DNA of 64,000 bases from Candidatus Heimdallarchaeota archaeon (lineage in GTDB: Archaea; Asgardarchaeota; Heimdallarchaeia; Heimdallarchaeales; Heimdallarchaeaceae): positions 608,001 through 672,000 of the forward strand of contig JAUVXV010000001.1 in assembly GCA_030603365.1 (NCBI GenBank), written 5' to 3'. The notes under the pieces are model-generated. The model was not told where the DNA came from and searched no databases. It was given only the letters and a program-made list of their open reading frames with translations. Below, one piece after another: positions 9,763-28,955 of the stretch. Every line of letters starts with the position of its first letter. Position 1 is the stretch's first letter. The translations under genes and the position numbers were made by a program.

Positions 9763-11628
9763 ATGAGTAAACCAGATAAAGCTTTGAATAAAGCAACTGT
9801 GTATATTCTTATAGGGTTGATTTTATTAAGTTCAATATTTGCAATTATGATGTTTGGTCCAGGTTCAGGACCTCAAAACGCTTTATTTTCAACAAGTTTA
9901 AAATATTATACAAAAGGAACCGAAGAATTATATTATGTTGATTACGCACAAGATATCATCCAAGATATTAGGGAAATTGGTGTCGATGTCACTGGTTATC
10001 CTACTGAATATTCAGTATTTCTTGATCAAGTCTTCAGCTCAAAGGAATATGATATGGCTATAATAGAATTTGGGGATCTAAATTCACCACATCTTGAGTT
10101 AATGTTTAAAGAAGGTGCAAGCTATAATATATTCAATTTTGAAAATGCACTTGATGGCAATACAACTCTAAATCTACTTAATAATATAACAATAGAAACT
10201 GATTTCAACGCAAGAAAAACCTTATTCTACCAACTACAAGAGCATTTAATGTTAAATATTGTTCCAATGGTGCCATTATTTACACCAGTGAGAACTTTTG
10301 CTTATTGGGATAATTTGGAGGGATTTTACAGTGAACAAGGATTATCTCACAGCCTTCCATACATGTCTTTCAATGGTTTACATGAAGACCAAGTTACAGT
10401 AGATGAACTCTATGTAGGAGCAGGAAGATGGTTTGATCTGCATCCATTAACGATGCTTGAAGATGCAGAAAAACTAATTGTGTCACTGATGATGGATAAA
10501 CTAGTAGAACAAGATAAGAAAGGAATGGCTACAAAATTAGGTCTAATTGATAACTGGGAATACCTAAATGATACAACTCTACTACTTCATTTACGAAATA
10601 ATGTGAATTGGCAAAACGATGTTGATAATCTTTTTACAACTGAAACTCTAACTACTGCCGATGTTTTATTCACTTTAGATTTGTACAAAAGCCTTTATTC
10701 TAATCTAAACTATGAGTTATACAACTGGATAGAATCTTACGAAGAATATAACAGTACAACCGTAGTAATATATATTGATTCAAATCAATTGACACCTGAA
10801 AGAGAACCATATGGCTTTGCACTTGAGGATTTAGCTATTTATCCATTTCCTGAATACTATCTTAATGTTGAACCAACAATAGAAGATGTAGTTAATTCAG
10901 ATAGATGGACAAAATTCAGAGTTAACCCATTTGGTACAGGTAAATACTGCTTTAATGCGTCAGAAAGTCAAGAAGATCTTGCTGCCATTCTTTACCGTTT
11001 TAATGATTGGCATGGAAATGGTATCCTTCCTGGAGAACCAACTAATTTAGCTTTTAATAGAATTGAAGTTCAGATGTATGAAAGTAGCTATGTTATGAAT
11101 CTTGCTCTTCAAGAAGGAAGAATTGACTGGGCTGATTTCAAGAAAAATCCTGTTATTGAGGATGCAATACCTGAAGAAAATTTCAAGGTAGAATTTAAGA
11201 TAGAAAATTCATTAATATTCCTAGCTTTCAACTTACAGAATTCGATTTTTGGTGGAGCTAATAACTTCGAGCCTACTAACGAAACAGGAGTTTCAAAAGC
11301 TCTAGCAATAAGAAAAGCAATTGCTACAATTATTCAAAAATCCTTAACGAATGAGAGATTACATAATGGGAGATACAACCTTACAGATTCCCCGCTTACA
11401 TACTTCTTCACTGATTACTATTATACTGGAGTGACAGATTATCCCTTTAGTATTGACCAAGCGGTGGAGTACTTGATACTTGCAGGCTATAACATTTCTG
11501 CAAGGGTTGAAGATGCAGAGGAGACCAGTTTCAGTCTTGTCAGTTCAATTGTAGGTTTGAGCTTTGTCTCACCAATCTTAGTACTTATAATCAAAAGAAA
11601 AAAGATTCACTTGAAGATTAATGACTAG
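9763..11628 (+). CDS. Family 5 (OppA/DppA-like) solute-binding protein, apparently circularly permuted, with C-terminal TM anchor
   Basis: LRNNVNW..TADVLFT, PFGTGKY, FLAFN, IRKAI motifs; the usual C-terminal block (IGVDV..YDMA..RKTLFYQLQ..VPMVPL) is at the N-terminus. Confidence 0.8.
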   Translation: MSKPDKALNKATVYILIGLILLSSIFAIMMFGPGSGPQNALFSTSLKYYTKGTEELYYVDYAQDIIQDIREIGVDVTGYPTEYSVFLDQVFSSKEYDMAIIEFGDLNSPHLELMFKEGASYNIFNFENALDGNTTLNLLNNITIETDFNARKTLFYQLQEHLMLNIVPMVPLFTPVRTFAYWDNLEGFYSEQGLSHSLPYMSFNGLHEDQVTVDELYVGAGRWFDLHPLTMLEDAEKLIVSLMMDKLVEQDKKGMATKLGLIDNWEYLNDTTLLLHLRNNVNWQNDVDNLFTTETLTTADVLFTLDLYKSLYSNLNYELYNWIESYEEYNSTTVVIYIDSNQLTPEREPYGFALEDLAIYPFPEYYLNVEPTIEDVVNSDRWTKFRVNPFGTGKYCFNASESQEDLAAILYRFNDWHGNGILPGEPTNLAFNRIEVQMYESSYVMNLALQEGRIDWADFKKNPVIEDAIPEENFKVEFKIENSLIFLAFNLQNSIFGGANNFEPTNETGVSKALAIRKAIATIIQKSLTNERLHNGRYNLTDSPLTYFFTDYYYTGVTDYPFSIDQAVEYLILAGYNISARVEDAEETSFSLVSSIVGLSFVSPILVLIIKRKKIHLKIND

Positions 11629-12340
11629 AATTAATGAAATAGGATTAGTGGACTTAAAGGGTAAACCACTAATTCAATCTTTTAGTGGAAGTGGAGCTAT
11701 AGGAACCATTCTATCAGCTTTCCTCATAAAAGCTTTCGAGATGGAACAAGTAGCAGTAATTCATGCAGATTCTGCCCCTCCAGTAGCAATGGTCAAGGGA
11801 GGATTAATAGAACATCCAATTAGGCTTTTCCAATCAGAAAAACTTTCATTGATGACTTGTGAAGTATCAATACCATATGCCATCCTTCCAGAATTTCTAG
11901 ATACTTTGATTCAATATTATATCGAGAAGGAAGTATCCTATATTGTACCAGTGGGAGGTTTGCCAGTTTTACCAGATAATTATGATAATGGTTATAGTTA
12001 TGGTGTAGTTAATAATTCGGACATGTTATCATTCCTAGAAGACAAAGGAATTCCACTATTAGAAGAAGGAGTTATCTATGGGTCAGTTGTAGAAGCTCTA
12101 GAATTATGTCATATTCATAATTTCAGTTCTTGTTTTGCACTTCTTGCTGAATGTGATCCAAGTTCCGCAAGCTATTATGCAACAAAGCAAATACTTCAAC
12201 AGCTGTCCAGTATCTTTGATATTGTCTTTGATGAAGATGAATTCAGTAAGGTAACTAATACAATTAAAGCTCGCATCGAAGAAAGTACTCGATACATAAG
12301 AGAAGATATAATGGATAAAACACGAGAGAGTCATCTCTAA
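11621..12340 (+). CDS. PAC2 / proteasome assembly chaperone family protein
   Basis: LIQSFSGSGAIGTI, PPVAMV..G....PIRLF, VPVGG, GVIYG, AECDP pattern. Confidence 0.75.
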   Translation: MTRINEIGLVDLKGKPLIQSFSGSGAIGTILSAFLIKAFEMEQVAVIHADSAPPVAMVKGGLIEHPIRLFQSEKLSLMTCEVSIPYAILPEFLDTLIQYYIEKEVSYIVPVGGLPVLPDNYDNGYSYGVVNNSDMLSFLEDKGIPLLEEGVIYGSVVEALELCHIHNFSSCFALLAECDPSSASYYATKQILQQLSSIFDIVFDEDEFSKVTNTIKARIEESTRYIREDIMDKTRESHL

Positions 12341-12427: not shown

Positions 12428-12443
12428 GAAAAAAGTTTAAATA
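12428..12443 (+). promoter_or_regulatory. BRE + TATA box for the putative ncRNA
   Basis: GAAAAAAG-TTTAAATA (TATA at 12436-12443) about 23 nt before the structured region, with no downstream + strand CDS. An alternative AATATATA lies at 12458-12465. Confidence 0.55.
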
Positions 12444-12465
12444 GGTTGGTGGACAAAAATATATA

Positions 12466-12810
12466 GGTCAAGGGTTAGGCTAGATTAGGGCTTAATGGTA
12501 ATCTAAAAGGGAACTGCAAACTGAACAGGAAGCGAAATCCGATGTTTCAGCCCTCCCAAGGGTAATCTCGGGAACTATGGTTGAACCCCTTTTTAGATGG
12601 TTTGAACCCCCATTGGGCTTAGTTAAGACCTCCTAAGCCTGAAATCCCCCAGAACCAGACTCGTGTTTGGTTTAACAGACATCTTCTGTCTGCCAGAATT
12701 TCAGTGGCTTGTGGGCTACTGGAATGGAACCCCCAACCAAACCCTCGAAACATCGAGCTAGAATCTCCTTCCTGTTCAGGCAGAAATCCCTCAGGGGTTT
12801 TTCTTCTTTT
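12466..12810 (+). ncRNA. Putative novel structured non-coding RNA (~330 nt)
   Basis: GC visibly above background. Long closing helix: 12521-12532 CTGAACAGGAAG / 12768-12779 CTTCCTGTTCAG, 12540-12548 CGATGTTTC / 12747-12755 GAAACATCG, plus CTGC/GCAG and GGGA/TCCC. Internal hairpins at 12481-12505, 12554-12573, 12615-12640, 12653-12672, 12676-12692 and 12702-12721, with G-U pairs favouring the + strand. Ends in a T-tract. Confidence 0.7.
12755..12796 (+). repeat. 42-bp direct repeat, copy 1 (master, 3' end of the ncRNA)
   Basis: GAGCTAGAATCTCCTTCCTGTTCAGGCAGAAATCCCTCAGGG followed by a T-rich tail. Confidence 0.97.
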
Positions 12811-12928
12811 ATTTTTGTTTATACAAAAAAAAATGATATTTTTCTTCCTTTGAGAGAATTTGGTAAAATCTAACTTGTTTTTATAAAAAGAAAATGAGTT
12901 GGGACAATAAAACTCTTAACTAATTTCT

Positions 12929-15462: not shown

Positions 15463-15504
15463 GAGCTAGAATCTCCTTCCTGTTCAGGCAGAAATCCCTC
15501 AGGG
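15463..15504 (+). repeat. 42-bp direct repeat, copy 2
   Basis: Identical to the master over 42 bp, then ATTTTTTCTTCTTTT. Confidence 0.97.
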
Positions 15505-15559
15505 ATTTTTTCTTCTTTTCTAAGAAACTAATATAAATGAAAAATACTTTGTATATTAG

Positions 15560-16256: not shown

Positions 16257-16298
16257 GAGCTAGAATCTCCTTCCTGTTTAGGCAGAAATCCTTCAGGG
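16257..16298 (+). repeat. 42-bp direct repeat, copy 3
   Basis: 2 mismatches to the master; match extends 5' through ACATC. Confidence 0.95.
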
Positions 16299-16363
16299 TT
16301 TGTTCTTCCTTTCCTTATGCTTTCAAACAATATTACAGAAAGCTTTTATTTCTTCAAAAATAG

Positions 16364-17841: not shown

Positions 17842-18591
17842 TTGAAATTAATGCAAGAATCAGTACTTAGCAAGACTAAAAGATTTTTCAGGAAAAATGA
17901 TATCTTCTTCAAAGTCTCTCTTTTTTTATTTCTAGCCGCGGGTACAGCATATGCATTTATTTTTGGAAACGCTCTACTTAAAATTGTAGCATCTCTATCT
18001 CTCGGAACTATGATTGCTTCATTTATCTCAAATTATGTTTTCAATTATCTTTATGGAGACGCATTCAAGCTTACACATGCAATAAATGAGATACTTTACT
18101 TGTTCCTAGGAATTCCAATAATGATCATAGCAATAGGTTACTTGCCGCTCAGTGTTTATATTCTCTTTTTTTCAACTGAAAATAATGAATGGATTGTCCC
18201 AATCTTAATTGGTATAATGGTAACAATGCAAATATCCTCTTTCATTTACATAATAAAAAGAAGGAGTAAAGAGAAAAGGAAAAATATCTTCCAGTTTATC
18301 AAATATATGTTCGACTTTAAAACAAGAGCAGAAGAGCAAAGAAAATTGCAAAAACAAACAGATCAAATAGACCGTTTCTACACAGACATGGAGAAAGTAA
18401 GGGATAGAGTAGATACCACAATGGAACGCAGTACCATAGATTTTGATGAGTTTGATTGGAAGAAAGTAAGAGGGATTAATCGAGAAGATAAAACAGAGGT
18501 AATCTGCTGGAATTGTAAAGAGACTAATAATACTAGTAATCTTGTATGTTCGAGCTGTGGAGTGGCTCTAAAGGAAAAATTATCGAGCTAG
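17842..18591 (+). CDS. Membrane protein (about 4 TM) with C-terminal zinc ribbon
   Basis: TM segments, CWNC..CSSC; close paralog of 29661-30437. Confidence 0.75.
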   Translation: MKLMQESVLSKTKRFFRKNDIFFKVSLFLFLAAGTAYAFIFGNALLKIVASLSLGTMIASFISNYVFNYLYGDAFKLTHAINEILYLFLGIPIMIIAIGYLPLSVYILFFSTENNEWIVPILIGIMVTMQISSFIYIIKRRSKEKRKNIFQFIKYMFDFKTRAEEQRKLQKQTDQIDRFYTDMEKVRDRVDTTMERSTIDFDEFDWKKVRGINREDKTEVICWNCKETNNTSNLVCSSCGVALKEKLSS

Positions 18592-18626
18592 AATCTCCTT
18601 CCTGTTCAGGCAGAAATCCCTCAGGG
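18585..18626 (+). repeat. 42-bp direct repeat, copy 4
   Basis: Identical to the master; supplies the TAG stop of ORF 17842-18591. Confidence 0.97.
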
Positions 18627-18673
18627 GTTTTACTTCTTTCTTTGGAATTAATAAACTATTTAAGGTCAGAATA

Positions 18674-19382: not shown

Positions 19383-19424
19383 GAGCTAGAATCTCCTTCC
19401 TGTTCAGGCAGAAATCCTTCAGGG
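19383..19424 (+). repeat. 42-bp direct repeat, copy 5
   Basis: 1 mismatch; match extends 5' through AACATC. Confidence 0.96.
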
Positions 19425-19482
19425 GTTTTTCTTCTTTTCTTTGCCTATGTTTTAAATACCTGTTTGTCAAAATTGTATACTG

Positions 19483-20139: not shown

Positions 20140-20181
20140 GAGCTAGAATCTCCTTCCTATTCAAGCAGAAATCTCTCAGGG
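20140..20181 (+). repeat. 42-bp direct repeat, copy 6 (most degenerate)
   Basis: 3 mismatches; first 19 bp invariant. Confidence 0.93.
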
Positions 20182-20320
20182 TTTTTCTTTCATTATTTTA
20201 CTTCAAAAATGTAATTTTCTTCTTAAAATGTACAAATAGTTGTACGGATTAAAGCATGCTCTGTACAAAGCATTATATTAAATCTGTTGGAAGACTTGTG
20301 ATAATTAGTCGATAATTCAA

Positions 20321-28913: not shown

Positions 28914-28955
28914 GAGCTAGAATCTCCTTCCTGTTCAGGCAGAAATCCCTCAAGG
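28914..28955 (+). repeat. 42-bp direct repeat, copy 7 (distal)
   Basis: 1 mismatch; its tail TTTTTCTTCTTTTATTTT matches the master's tail furthest. Confidence 0.96.

What the first reader, a model, noticed from the sequence alone, without database searches (positions are those of the whole stretch)
12466..12810. Unannotated ~330-nt structured RNA matching no archaeal RNA class I recognise
Seen: BRE/TATA, a long interrupted closing helix (perfect 12-bp and 9-bp segments), six hairpins with + strand G-U pairs, a nested multiloop (CTGAAAT 12639 / ATTTCAG 12698) and a terminal hairpin followed by a T-tract. It lacks the SRP helix-8 (CAGG..GGAA..AGCAG) and RNase P (GAGGAAAGUCC-type) signatures and has no tRNA cloverleaf. 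Inference: a novel stable RNA. Repeated restoration of its 3' end during array growth would imply it is functionally important.
Basis: partly seen in the sequence, partly recalled or inferred. Interest (0 to 1): 0.85.

Follow-up and report, generated by a model that had tools for sequence, protein, structure and literature searches.

The report
Conserved, probably circular RNA gene
This is a real, strongly conserved gene for an undescribed RNA of about 270 bases, found in only one family of Heimdall (Asgard) archaea; it is framed by the motif that the tRNA-splicing enzyme cuts, so it is probably released as a ring, its function is unknown, and mobile DNA has repeatedly inserted at its 3' end.

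Summary
Window 12466-12812 (+) is a stand-alone RNA gene. It has a conserved BRE/TATA, 46-50% G+C against about 32% in the flanks, and a T-tract terminator. It matches no Rfam family. The genome's SRP RNA, RNase P RNA and tRNA-Cys all lie elsewhere.

The "closing helix" is a canonical bulge-helix-bulge (BHB) motif: 3-nt bulge, 4-bp helix, 3-nt bulge, flanked by helices. This geometry is kept in 24 distinct homologues from five genera. Across 23 stem pairs, 99.5% of cells are canonical and 12 pairs show compensatory double changes.

The leader and trailer are poorly conserved, whereas the enclosed 205-290 nt are highly conserved. I therefore predict excision by the splicing endonuclease at 12519/12520 and 12785/12786, followed by ligation by RtcB into a 266-nt ring. 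The genome encodes both enzymes.

The RNA carries 3-6 repeated (G)AACCCC motifs, a hairpin loop GACCUCCU (like the 16S anti-Shine-Dalgarno tail) and a U-tract. It is single-copy and detected only in this family. Function is unknown; a multivalent C-rich binding platform is my best guess.

Its last ~58 nt recur six times downstream, which marks it as an integration site. The scan found this RNA family before in another genome (e1-4778004).

The parts
12430..12443 (+). BRE/TATA promoter element (AAAAAGTTTAAATA)
   Evidence: Conserved in all homologues at the same distance upstream of the RNA.
12466..12519 (+). 5' leader ('5' exon'). The start is inferred from the TATA distance. Sequence is poorly conserved.
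   Evidence: The leader differs in sequence and length between subclades and genera, except next to the BHB. ARAGORN finds no tRNA in the ligated leader plus trailer.
12508..12512 (+). Outer BHB helix, 5' strand (AGGGA). Pairs with 12787-12791 (UCCCU).
   Evidence: The outer helix is present in all genera with different sequences. It is a perfect 8 bp, GCAAGGAA/UUCCUUGC, in genus g2.
12514..12517 (+). Central 4-bp BHB helix, 5' strand (CUGC). Pairs with 12780-12783 (GCAG).
   Evidence: 0 non-canonical cells of 96. Variants are CUGC/GCAG, AUGU/GCAU, GUGU/GCAC, CUAC/GUAG and CUGU/GCAG.
12518..12520 (+). 5' three-nucleotide bulge (AAA). Predicted cleavage between 12519 and 12520.
   Evidence: AAA is invariant in 24 sequences. 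The cleavage position is inferred from the canonical BHB rule (after the second bulge nucleotide), from established knowledge.
12520..12785 (+). Predicted excised RNA of 266 nt, probably ligated into a ring. This is the highly conserved part.
   Evidence: BLAST and CM conservation is confined to this part. BHB geometry. EndA and RtcB genes are present.
12521..12532 (+). P1, 5' strand (CUGAACAGGAAG). Pairs with 12768-12779.
   Evidence: 12 bp. 7 positions show compensatory double changes, and 2 of 288 cells are non-canonical. Genus g5 has CCAGAUAGGAAG/CUUCCUAUCUGG.
12540..12548 (+). P2, 5' strand (CGAUGUUUC). Pairs with 12747-12755 (GAAACAUCG).
   Evidence: The first 7 bp are kept in all sequences, with compensatory changes at 3 positions.
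12550..12563 (+). P2a, a variable hairpin (absent in one subclade).
12579..12611 (+). Two tandem modules, GGUUGAACCCC-UUUUUAG and (AU)GGUUUGAACCCCC: C-rich motifs plus a U-tract.
   Evidence: Nearly invariant across the genus. The A[ACU]CCC motif occurs 4-10 times (overlapping count) per RNA against about 1 in shuffles.
12615..12639 (+). P5 hairpin whose loop carries the invariant GACCUCCU (12627-12634).
   Evidence: The stem covaries: GGGCUUAG/CUAAGCC, GGCUUUU/AAAAGCC, CAGACUU/AAGUCUG, GGCUUAG/CUAAGUC. GACCUCCUAA is invariant in five genera. It shares ACCUCCUA with the 16S 3' end of this genome.
12647..12654 (+). Invariant single-stranded CCCCAGAA.
12655..12692 (+). Hairpins P6a (12655-12670) and P6b (12676-12692).
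   Evidence: P6a covaries: CCAGAC/GUCUGG, CCAGCA/UGCUGG, CCAAAC/GUUUGG, AUCAGA/UCUGAU.
12699..12729 (+). Optional inserted hairpin, lineage-specific.
   Evidence: Absent from L012 (88% identical) and from most homologues.
12730..12744 (+). CCCCCAACCAAACCC. CAACC probably pairs with GGUUG at 12579-12583 (P3).
   Evidence: RNAalifold consensus. GGU/ACC is kept in all genera, but there is little variation to test the pairing.
12784..12786 (+). 3' three-nucleotide bulge (AAA). Predicted cleavage between 12785 and 12786.
   Evidence: The bulge is AAA, AAC or UAA, always 3 nt and always 4 bp from the 5' bulge.
12786..12816 (+). 3' trailer with outer-helix strand, a local hairpin and the T-tract terminator (12798-12816).
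12755..12812 (+). 3' segment that acts as the attachment-site-like repeat (copy 1, inside the intact gene).
15463..15520 (+). Isolated copy 2 of the RNA 3' end.
16257..16314 (+). Isolated copy 3 of the RNA 3' end.
18585..18642 (+). Isolated copy 4 of the RNA 3' end.
19383..19440 (+). Isolated copy 5 of the RNA 3' end.
20140..20197 (+). Isolated copy 6 of the RNA 3' end (most diverged).
28914..28971 (+). Isolated copy 7 of the RNA 3' end (distal end of the inserted block).

Best explanation
This is a stand-alone, host-encoded gene for a family-specific non-coding RNA.

Shown:
- It has its own conserved BRE/TATA promoter and oligo-T terminator.
- The leader and trailer pair to form a canonical archaeal bulge-helix-bulge motif (helix, 3-nt bulge, 4-bp helix, 3-nt bulge, helix) that encloses the conserved RNA.

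Inferred from the established behaviour of archaeal splicing endonuclease and RtcB on any BHB (tRNA introns, pre-rRNA, Thermoproteus SRP RNA):
- EndA cuts after the second nucleotide of each bulge, at 12519/12520 and 12785/12786.
- RtcB joins the ends of the released 266-nt piece into a ring. In the ring, the 12-bp P1 stem is capped by the loop GCAGAAA.
- The unconserved leader and trailer are joined as a by-product.

The ring is a rod (P1, P2) that opens into a multi-branch core. The core displays, largely unpaired, 3-6 copies of (G)AACCCC, a U-tract, CCCCAGAA and CAGAACCCC, and a hairpin loop GACCUCCU that resembles the anti-Shine-Dalgarno tail of 16S rRNA.

Inferred with low confidence:
- The RNA acts as a nuclease-resistant multivalent platform or sponge. 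About 40% of my weight is on an oligomeric RNA-binding protein that reads C-rich/U-rich single strands. About 20% is on G-rich or Shine-Dalgarno-like RNA targets. The rest is on functions I cannot name.

Separately, its last ~58 nt serve as the chromosomal attachment site for mobile DNA. Each insertion regenerates the gene and leaves a 3' fragment further downstream.
For: Gene reality and strand:
- G+C island.
- Folding z = -2.9.
- Conserved promoter and T-tract.
- G-U pairs specific to the + strand.

Not a known RNA:
- Rfam gives nothing.
- SRP RNA, RNase P RNA and tRNA-Cys are elsewhere in the genome.
- No tRNA or tmRNA is found, even in the doubled (permuted) circle or the ligated exons.

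BHB motif:
- Across 24 distinct sequences from five genera the 3-4-3 geometry is invariant.
- H, P1 and P2 are 99.5% canonical. 12 of 23 pairs have compensatory double changes, against a mean of 2.9 in column shuffles, and 0 of 500 shuffles reach 12.
- The outer helix covaries and is 8 bp perfect in g2.

Which part is functional:
- Conservation is high inside the BHB and low in the leader and trailer.

Machinery:
- Two EndA-family genes and RtcB are in this genome.

Motifs:
- A[ACU]CCC occurs 4-10 times (overlapping count) per RNA against about 1 expected.
- GACCUCCU is always in the P5 loop and, like most C-runs, is predicted mostly unpaired in circular folds.
- ACCUCCUA is shared with the 16S 3' end.

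Host gene:
- Single copy, at the syntenic position PAC2 - RNA - ELP3, in genera with and without arrays.

Attachment site:
- Six isolated 3' copies in the same orientation.
- ELP3 lies about 700 nt from the RNA in a relative but about 20 kb away here.
- Similar extra copies occur in at least six other genomes of the genus.

Precedent:
- Circular SRP RNA made by EndA at a BHB (PMC4731332).
- EndA substrates outside tRNA (PMC7714728).
Against: - No RNA data could be examined.
- A search of metagenome contigs for the ligated junction found nothing, but that collection appears to be DNA assemblies.
- In genus g1 the 3' bulge faces one or two unpaired A's on the 5' strand, or alternatively an A-U pair followed by an A-C mismatch. 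The motif there is slightly relaxed rather than textbook.
- Function has no direct support. No extended complementarity to other genomic sequences was found, with at most about 14 nt, which is chance level. Shine-Dalgarno use in this genome is only moderate. No candidate protein partner was identified.
- No integrase gene lies in the inserted block, so the integration mechanism is unresolved.
Confidence: 0.72

Rival explanations
1. The RNA is a stable linear RNA of about 345 nt. The bulged closing helix is a protein-binding or stabilising rod and is not a substrate for the splicing endonuclease.
For: No read evidence for cleavage or a junction was obtainable. In genus g1 the 3' bulge sits in a slightly asymmetric internal loop.
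Against: The exact 3-nt / 4-bp / 3-nt geometry is kept through many compensatory changes in five genera. Leader and trailer outside the motif are unconserved, as expected for discarded flanks. EndA (two subunits, the type the literature describes as broad-specificity, PMC7714728) and RtcB are encoded.
Confidence: 0.1
2. The locus is a decayed intron-containing tRNA-Cys(GCA) gene. The 266 nt are a giant intron at position 37/38, and the ligated exons are, or were, the functional product.
For: In g1 and g3 the 5' strand reads CUGCAAA, identical to the anticodon loop of the genome's real tRNA-Cys. The BHB sits exactly as a canonical 37/38 intron would. Integrative elements typically target tRNA genes (established knowledge).
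Against: - The 'anticodon' covaries with its partner: AUGU in g2, GUGU in g5, CUAC in g4. The helix is therefore selected, not an anticodon.
- There are no D or T arms, and ARAGORN finds nothing in the window or in the ligated exons.
- The exons are the least conserved part.
- A normal tRNA-Cys exists on C14.

At most this is a remote evolutionary origin.
Confidence: 0.03
3. The RNA is a highly divergent or circularly permuted member of a known universal RNA family (SRP, RNase P/MRP, or another) that covariance models miss.
For: Thermoproteus hides its SRP RNA in a permuted, BHB-processed gene (PMC4731332). Short strings such as CCAGAA...GGCUU faintly recall RNase P CR-V (my own recollection, a lead only).
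Against: - Full-length SRP RNA (91 bits) and RNase P RNA (163 bits) genes are present elsewhere in the genome.
- No Rfam hit, even at E<=10, in the window or in five genera.
- The defining motifs are absent in any permutation.
- No TROVE/Ro protein is encoded that would suggest a Y RNA.

Confidence: 0.03
4. The RNA belongs to the mobile cassette system rather than to the host. It would be an integron-like platform RNA, or a guide for recombination at its own 3' end, possibly working with the catalytic-domain-less 'Recombinase' protein next to the array.
For: Seven direct copies of its 3' end delimit cassettes. A PF07508-only protein lies just beyond the array here (30538-31371) and in G009. 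No conventional integrase is present.
Against: The RNA is present as a single copy at the same syntenic place in all five genera, including many genomes with no extra copies and with ELP3 only about 700 nt downstream. Its most conserved parts, the C-rich core and the P5 loop, are not part of the repeated segment.
Confidence: 0.07

Closest known systems
Circular SRP RNA of Thermoproteus tenax (Plagens et al. 2015, PMC4731332)
   Same: Both are stand-alone stable-RNA genes whose flanks form a BHB. That BHB is cut by the tRNA splicing endonuclease and the product is ligated into a stable functional ring.
   Different: The Thermoproteus RNA is a permuted copy of the universal SRP RNA, and circularisation repairs the permutation. 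The RNA here is not SRP RNA (the genome has one elsewhere), matches no known family, and circularisation is predicted rather than observed.
Circular pre-16S/23S rRNA intermediates and circular 23S rRNA of archaea (PMC12918454, PMC7714728)
   Same: A long processing stem formed by leader and trailer carries a BHB. Excision and ligation give a circle. The RNA is conserved and its flanks are discarded.
   Different: Those are ribosomal RNAs in an operon. This is a 205-290-nt RNA from its own promoter, with no similarity to rRNA apart from an 8-nt ACCUCCUA string.
Archaeal tRNA introns that carry a functional RNA, such as the tRNA-Trp intron encoding a C/D box sRNA (reviewed in PMC7714728)
   Same: The useful RNA is the excised piece between two BHB cuts. 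In g1 the geometry equals a canonical 37/38 intron.
   Different: Here the 'exons' form no tRNA and are unconserved. No C/D boxes were recognised, and Rfam snoRNA models gave nothing.
tRNA and tmRNA genes as attachment sites of integrative elements (established knowledge)
   Same: The 3' end of a conserved stable-RNA gene is duplicated at each insertion, the gene is regenerated, and tandem insertions leave serial 3' fragments.
   Different: The target is neither a tRNA nor a tmRNA. No integrase is found in the inserted DNA, and some units are only 0.35-0.8 kb, so they look more like cassettes than elements.
Multi-motif sponge or seed RNAs of bacteria: CsrB/RsmZ (repeated GGA) and C-rich RsaE/RoxS-type sRNAs (my own knowledge, analogy only)
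   Same: A short single-stranded motif is repeated several times on a structured scaffold. C-rich motifs in a low-G+C genome could pair with G-rich ribosome-binding sites or titrate a protein.
   Different: There is no sequence or structural homology, it is a different domain of life, and no partner has been identified. The resemblance concerns how it might work, not membership.

Membership tests
BHB-processed (EndA/RtcB) circular RNAs of archaea | Two 3-nt bulges on opposite strands separated by a 4-bp helix | tested here: met
   Kept in all 24 distinct homologues. The 4-bp helix has 0 of 96 non-canonical cells and three pair types at position 1.
BHB-processed (EndA/RtcB) circular RNAs of archaea | Flanking helices on both sides of the motif (hBHBh') | tested here: met
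   The inner 12-bp P1 has 7 covarying positions. The outer helix is present in all genera and is 8 bp perfect in g2. In g1 it is offset by 1-2 unpaired A's.
BHB-processed (EndA/RtcB) circular RNAs of archaea | Splicing endonuclease and RtcB ligase encoded by the organism | tested here: met
   PF01974 hits at C13:113944 (97.6 bits) and C1:60945 (46 bits). RtcB at C1:367073 (550 bits).
BHB-processed (EndA/RtcB) circular RNAs of archaea | Reads or blots showing the ligated junction (circle) | not testable with these tools
The junction pattern was absent from metagenome contigs, which are DNA assemblies. An earlier scan note (e1-4778004) reports such reads for a homologue, but I could not check it.
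Archaeal SRP RNA (Rfam RF01857) | Match to the covariance model / helix 8 motifs | tested here: not met
   No hit in the window. The genome's SRP RNA is at C14:291610-291917.
Archaeal RNase P RNA (Rfam RF00373) | Match to the covariance model / CR-I and CR-V with P4 | tested here: not met
   No hit in the window. The genome's RNase P RNA is at C1:492966-493289, 163.5 bits.
tRNA (intron-containing or permuted) / tmRNA | Cloverleaf with D and T arms in the exons or in the circle | tested here: not met
   ARAGORN reports 0 genes in the window, in the ligated exons and in the doubled circles of five genera. The anticodon-like CUGC covaries as a helix.
Any Rfam 15 family | cmscan match | tested here: not met
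   0 matches at gathering score over 64 kb. No match inside the RNA at E<=10. 0 at E<=1 in six homologous loci. Permuted versions were not tested.
Y RNA / Ro RNP | Ro60 (TROVE) protein encoded | tested here: not met
   No PF05731 match in the genome, which is 89% complete.
Stable-RNA-gene attachment site for integrative elements | Direct repeats of the gene's 3' end bounding inserted DNA, with the gene left intact | tested here: met
   Seven copies in one orientation. About 20 kb lies between the RNA and ELP3, against about 0.7 kb in a relative.
Stable-RNA-gene attachment site for integrative elements | Integrase encoded by the inserted element | tested here: not met
   Pfam finds no tyrosine or serine catalytic domain in the ORFs tested, which were not all of the ORFs in the block. 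The genome's only PF00589 hit is on C11. A PF07508-only protein lies beyond the array.

The most novel reading that the evidence does not exclude
The ring is the RNA core of a ribonucleoprotein or regulator unique to this Heimdall family. It would use its anti-Shine-Dalgarno-like loop and repeated C-runs to act on translation or small-subunit biogenesis.

In addition, the single 5' BHB strand of its precursor could pair in trans with the isolated 3' BHB strands that end the cassette transcripts. EndA/RtcB would then process or join cassette RNAs, giving an RNA-level link between a housekeeping circular RNA and an integron-like gene array.
Probability: 0.1. Interest if true: 0.9.

Novelty: new variant of a known kind. 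Interest (0 to 1): 0.7.

Why it matters
Heimdall archaea are the closest known relatives of eukaryotes, and their non-coding RNA repertoire is almost unexplored.

This gene is conserved across five genera and has a consensus promoter. Its apparent sole purpose is to deliver an RNA of unknown function through the tRNA-splicing pathway, probably as a ring. Until now, EndA substrates outside tRNA and rRNA have been rare curiosities: one permuted SRP RNA and a few mRNAs.

A dedicated, family-wide circular RNA would show that this pathway is used to manufacture stable regulatory or structural RNAs. It would also give a defined molecule for pull-downs to find its partner.

It is further the first non-tRNA stable-RNA gene I could find acting as an integration hot spot in Asgard archaea. 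This both argues for its importance to the host and marks where these genomes acquire surface-protein genes.

Tried and rejected
- Full-length covariance model. I used a 149-position model of the central domain instead, which carries only 5 base pairs.
- Ligated junction. The pattern TGTTCAGGCAG-N2-5-CTGAACAGGAAG gave 0 hits in metagenome contigs.
- Signature pattern in metagenomes. It gave 88 loci, of which only 9 are true homologues by the model. All are collinear DNA and add little diversity.
- 3'-strand pattern with 1 mismatch. Outside the family it gave only chance hits. The g5 hits were inside a coding gene.
- Trans targets. Reverse-complement 11-mers across the genome gave nothing longer than about 14 nt, which is chance level.
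- Shine-Dalgarno census. There is only moderate G enrichment at -12 to -6, and AGGAGGUC is not enriched.
- Y-RNA idea. No TROVE protein is encoded.
- tRNA-Cys idea. Rejected by covariation and ARAGORN.
- RNase P/MRP-like strings that I recalled. They are not supported by any model.
- K-turn and loop-E readings of the J1/2-J2/1 internal loop. They did not fit consistently across genera (by eye).
- 16S processing stem. I could not locate the 16S 5' end with standard motifs, so I did not compare rRNA processing stems with this BHB.
- Complex prediction, structure prediction and the large protein searches were not used, because no protein partner is in hand.
Full report
**What is there**

Window 12430-12816 (+ strand) holds a compact RNA gene. 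A BRE/TATA element, AAAAAGTTTAAATA, lies at 12430-12443. The likely start at 12466 lies about 25 nt downstream. The unit ends in an oligo-T tract at 12798-12816.

G+C rises to 46-50% against about 32% on both sides. The + strand folds to -115.7 kcal/mol, z = -2.9, and no shuffle of 100 does as well. The - strand also folds well (z = -2.4). The strand is therefore fixed by the promoter, the terminator and the G-U pairs in conserved stems, which would be A-C mismatches on the other strand.

The flanking genes are a PAC2-family protein upstream (11621-12340) and, on the opposite strand downstream, a NosD/beta-helix protein.

**It is not a known RNA**

- Rfam 15 gives no match at gathering score anywhere in the 64 kb.
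- It gives no match inside the RNA at E<=10.
- It gives none at E<=1 in six homologous loci from five genera.
- The genome's SRP RNA is on contig 14 (91 bits, full length). Its RNase P RNA is at C1:492966 (163.5 bits).
- ARAGORN finds no tRNA in the window, and a normal tRNA-Cys(GCA) lies on contig 14.
- ARAGORN also finds nothing in the doubled (permuted) RNA or in the joined leader plus trailer of five genera.

**Conservation and distribution**

BLAST finds the RNA in nearly all genomes of the same family at 69-93% identity within the genus, and the match is limited to the RNA itself.

An exact signature, GACCTCCTAA-N4-16-CCCCAGAA, occurs once per genome in all five genera of the family. It occurs in none of 369 other genomes of the phylum, and the reversed control gave no hits.

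A covariance model of the central 149 positions hits this genome and 27 of the 30 other family genomes, one strong hit per genome in all but one fragmented assembly. It hits none of the 52 genomes in the six other families of the class. Nine further homologues occur on metagenome contigs.

Close relatives of the neighbouring PAC2 gene are labelled Candidatus Heimdallarchaeota. Two closed genomes of the family (genus g5) carry a 213-nt version.

The position is syntenic: PAC2 - RNA - ELP3 in g1 and g3. PAC2 lies upstream in g4. ELP3 lies downstream in g5, after a short reading frame that I read by eye as ribosomal protein eS30.

**The key feature: a bulge-helix-bulge motif**

| Element | 5' strand | 3' strand |
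|---|---|---|
| Outer helix | 12508-12512 | 12787-12791 |
| 4-bp helix | CUGC, 12514-12517 | GCAG, 12780-12783 |
| 3-nt bulge | AAA, 12518-12520 | AAA, 12784-12786 |
| 12-bp helix P1 | 12521-12532 | 12768-12779 |

An earlier first-stage note (e1-5503793) suggested a BHB, so I tested it on 24 distinct homologues.

- The 3-4-3 geometry is invariant.
- The 4-bp helix occurs as CUGC/GCAG, CUGU/GCAG, CUAC/GUAG, AUGU/GCAU and GUGU/GCAC.
- P1 changes at seven positions by paired substitutions. For example, g5 has CCAGAUAGGAAG/CUUCCUAUCUGG.
- P2 (CGAUGUU/AACAUCG) changes at three positions.

Over these 23 pairs, 99.5% of cells are canonical and 12 pairs carry compensatory double changes. Column shuffles give a mean of 2.9, and none of 500 reaches 12.

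The outer helix differs in sequence in every genus but is always present. It is 8 bp perfect in g2. In g1 the 3' bulge faces one or two unpaired A's, so the motif there is slightly relaxed.

**What the motif implies**

Archaeal splicing endonuclease recognises this motif in any RNA context, and RtcB ligates the products, circularising the excised piece. This has been shown for tRNA introns, pre-rRNA, a 5' UTR and the permuted SRP RNA of Thermoproteus (PMC7714728, PMC4731332, PMC12918454).

This genome encodes two EndA-family proteins and RtcB.

The leader and trailer outside the motif are the least conserved parts, and the enclosed 205-290 nt are the most conserved. The functional product is therefore the excised piece, here 12520-12785 (266 nt), most likely as a ring in which P1 is closed by the loop GCAGAAA.

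This step is inference. A junction search in metagenome contigs found nothing, and that collection appears to be DNA.

An earlier follow-up in this scan, on a homologue in another genome (e1-4778004), reports abundant circular reads in sediment RNA. I could not check that and do not count it as evidence.

**Anatomy of the excised RNA**

P1 and P2 form a rod that opens into a multi-branch core.

Local hairpins are supported by covariation:

- P5: GGGCUUAG/CUAAGCC, GGCUUUU/AAAAGCC, CAGACUU/AAGUCUG, GGCUUAG/CUAAGUC.
- P6a: CCAGAC/GUCUGG, CCAGCA/UGCUGG, CCAAAC/GUUUGG, AUCAGA/UCUGAU.
- P6b: CAGAC/GUCUG.

Several hairpins are optional insertions at fixed points, as in other structured RNAs. The 31-nt insert at 12699-12729 is one of them.

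The invariant elements are mostly single-stranded:

- GGUUGAACCCC followed by a U-tract.
- A second GGUUUGAACCCCC (in g1 and g2).
- GACCUCCU(AA), always in the P5 loop.
- CCCCAGAA.
- CAGAACCCC(C)AACC.

GGUUG probably pairs with CAACC (P3), but these positions vary too little to test the pairing.

The motif A[ACU]CCC occurs 4-10 times (overlapping count) per RNA, against about 1 in shuffles. Circular folds keep the P5 loop and most C-runs unpaired. The P5 loop shares ACCUCCUA with the 3' end of this genome's 16S rRNA, GGAUCACCUCCUA.

**Function**

Nothing here shows what the RNA does. The evidence consists of repeated, invariant, exposed C-rich motifs plus a U-tract on a nuclease-resistant scaffold, single-copy and conserved at family level.

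My best guess is a multivalent binding platform for an oligomeric single-strand RNA-binding protein. Candidates are KH-domain or Sm-like proteins (from general knowledge, untested).

A second possibility is pairing with G-rich or Shine-Dalgarno-like sequences through the anti-SD-like loop and C-runs. This genome shows only moderate Shine-Dalgarno signal, and I found no extended complementary target. No Ro/TROVE protein is encoded.

**The 3' end as an insertion site**

The last ~58 nt (from GAGCUAG at 12755 through the T-tract) recur six more times in the same orientation, at 15463, 16257, 18585, 19383, 20140 and 28914. No copy of the 5' part recurs.

In a relative without extra copies, ELP3 starts about 700 nt after the RNA. 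Here ELP3 is at 33056, so about 20 kb has been inserted.

Extra 3' copies also follow the RNA in at least six other genomes of the genus. This is the pattern left by serial site-specific insertion into the 3' end of a stable-RNA gene, with the gene regenerated each time.

The mechanism is unresolved:

- No integrase domain is found in the inserted ORFs that I tested.
- The genome's only tyrosine recombinase is on another contig.
- Some units are only 0.35-0.8 kb.
- A protein with only the PF07508 'Recombinase' domain lies just beyond the array here and in G009.

**Rivals**

- A linear, unprocessed RNA cannot be excluded without reads. It would not explain the exact conservation of the splice geometry.
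- The decayed tRNA-Cys reading (e1-5503794) fails. The anticodon-like CUGC covaries as a helix, there is no cloverleaf, and a real tRNA-Cys exists.
- A divergent or permuted known RNA is unlikely given the genome's own SRP and RNase P RNAs and the empty Rfam searches. A permuted cmscan could not be run.
- A role as part of the mobile array is contradicted by its presence, single-copy and syntenic, in genera and genomes without arrays.

**Verdict**

This is a real, undescribed, family-specific RNA gene of Heimdall archaea. It is very probably processed at a canonical BHB into a roughly 266-nt ring. Its function is unknown, and it doubles as an integration hot spot.

The biogenesis follows a known route. 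What is new is a dedicated gene for a non-universal RNA made this way. The same RNA family was already flagged once in this scan on another genome.

Noticed in passing
window 12810-32900: About 20 kb lies between the RNA and ELP3 (33056-34648), divided by six isolated copies of the RNA's 3' end. The cargo includes at least two NosD/beta-helix paralogues confirmed by Pfam, with similar neighbouring ORFs linked to them by DNA repeats. It also includes several small unknown proteins of 200-265 aa and a winged-helix protein. No integrase domain was found.
   Followed up: partly
window 30538-31371 (+); L107:2552-3376 (-): A protein of about 275 aa whose only Pfam match is the 'Recombinase' domain PF07508, with no resolvase catalytic domain. 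It lies just beyond the last 3'-end copy, both here and in another genome of the genus (G009). It was not seen in a relative that lacks the array. It may be linked to the array.
   Followed up: partly
L108:1142-2440 (G020); L107:3797-5029 (G009): A SecY-family gene lies between two copies of the RNA 3' end in G020 and next to the array in G009. A translocon paralogue therefore appears to travel as cassette cargo.
   Followed up: no
G000 C14:291610-291917: The genome's SRP RNA matches Rfam Archaea_SRP over its full length but scores 91.2 bits, just under the gathering score of 96.5. Standard annotation would miss it.
   Followed up: no
G000 C8, about 10078 (- strand): The 3' end of 16S rRNA (GGATCACCTCCT) is preceded by what looks like an expanded terminal helix. 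The usual 5'-end motifs of archaeal 16S were not found within 2.5 kb upstream, which suggests insertions or introns in the gene.
   Followed up: no
G000 C13:113944-114174 and C1:60945-61205: There are two separate splicing-endonuclease-family genes (97.6 and 46 bits). This suggests a heteromeric enzyme, the type described in the literature as having broad substrate range.
   Followed up: no
L072 and L073 (genus g5, closed genomes): In the two closed genomes the RNA is shorter (213 nt excised). It is followed by a short reading frame that looks like ribosomal protein eS30 (by eye, not tested) and then by ELP3. The upstream gene differs from PAC2.
   Followed up: partly
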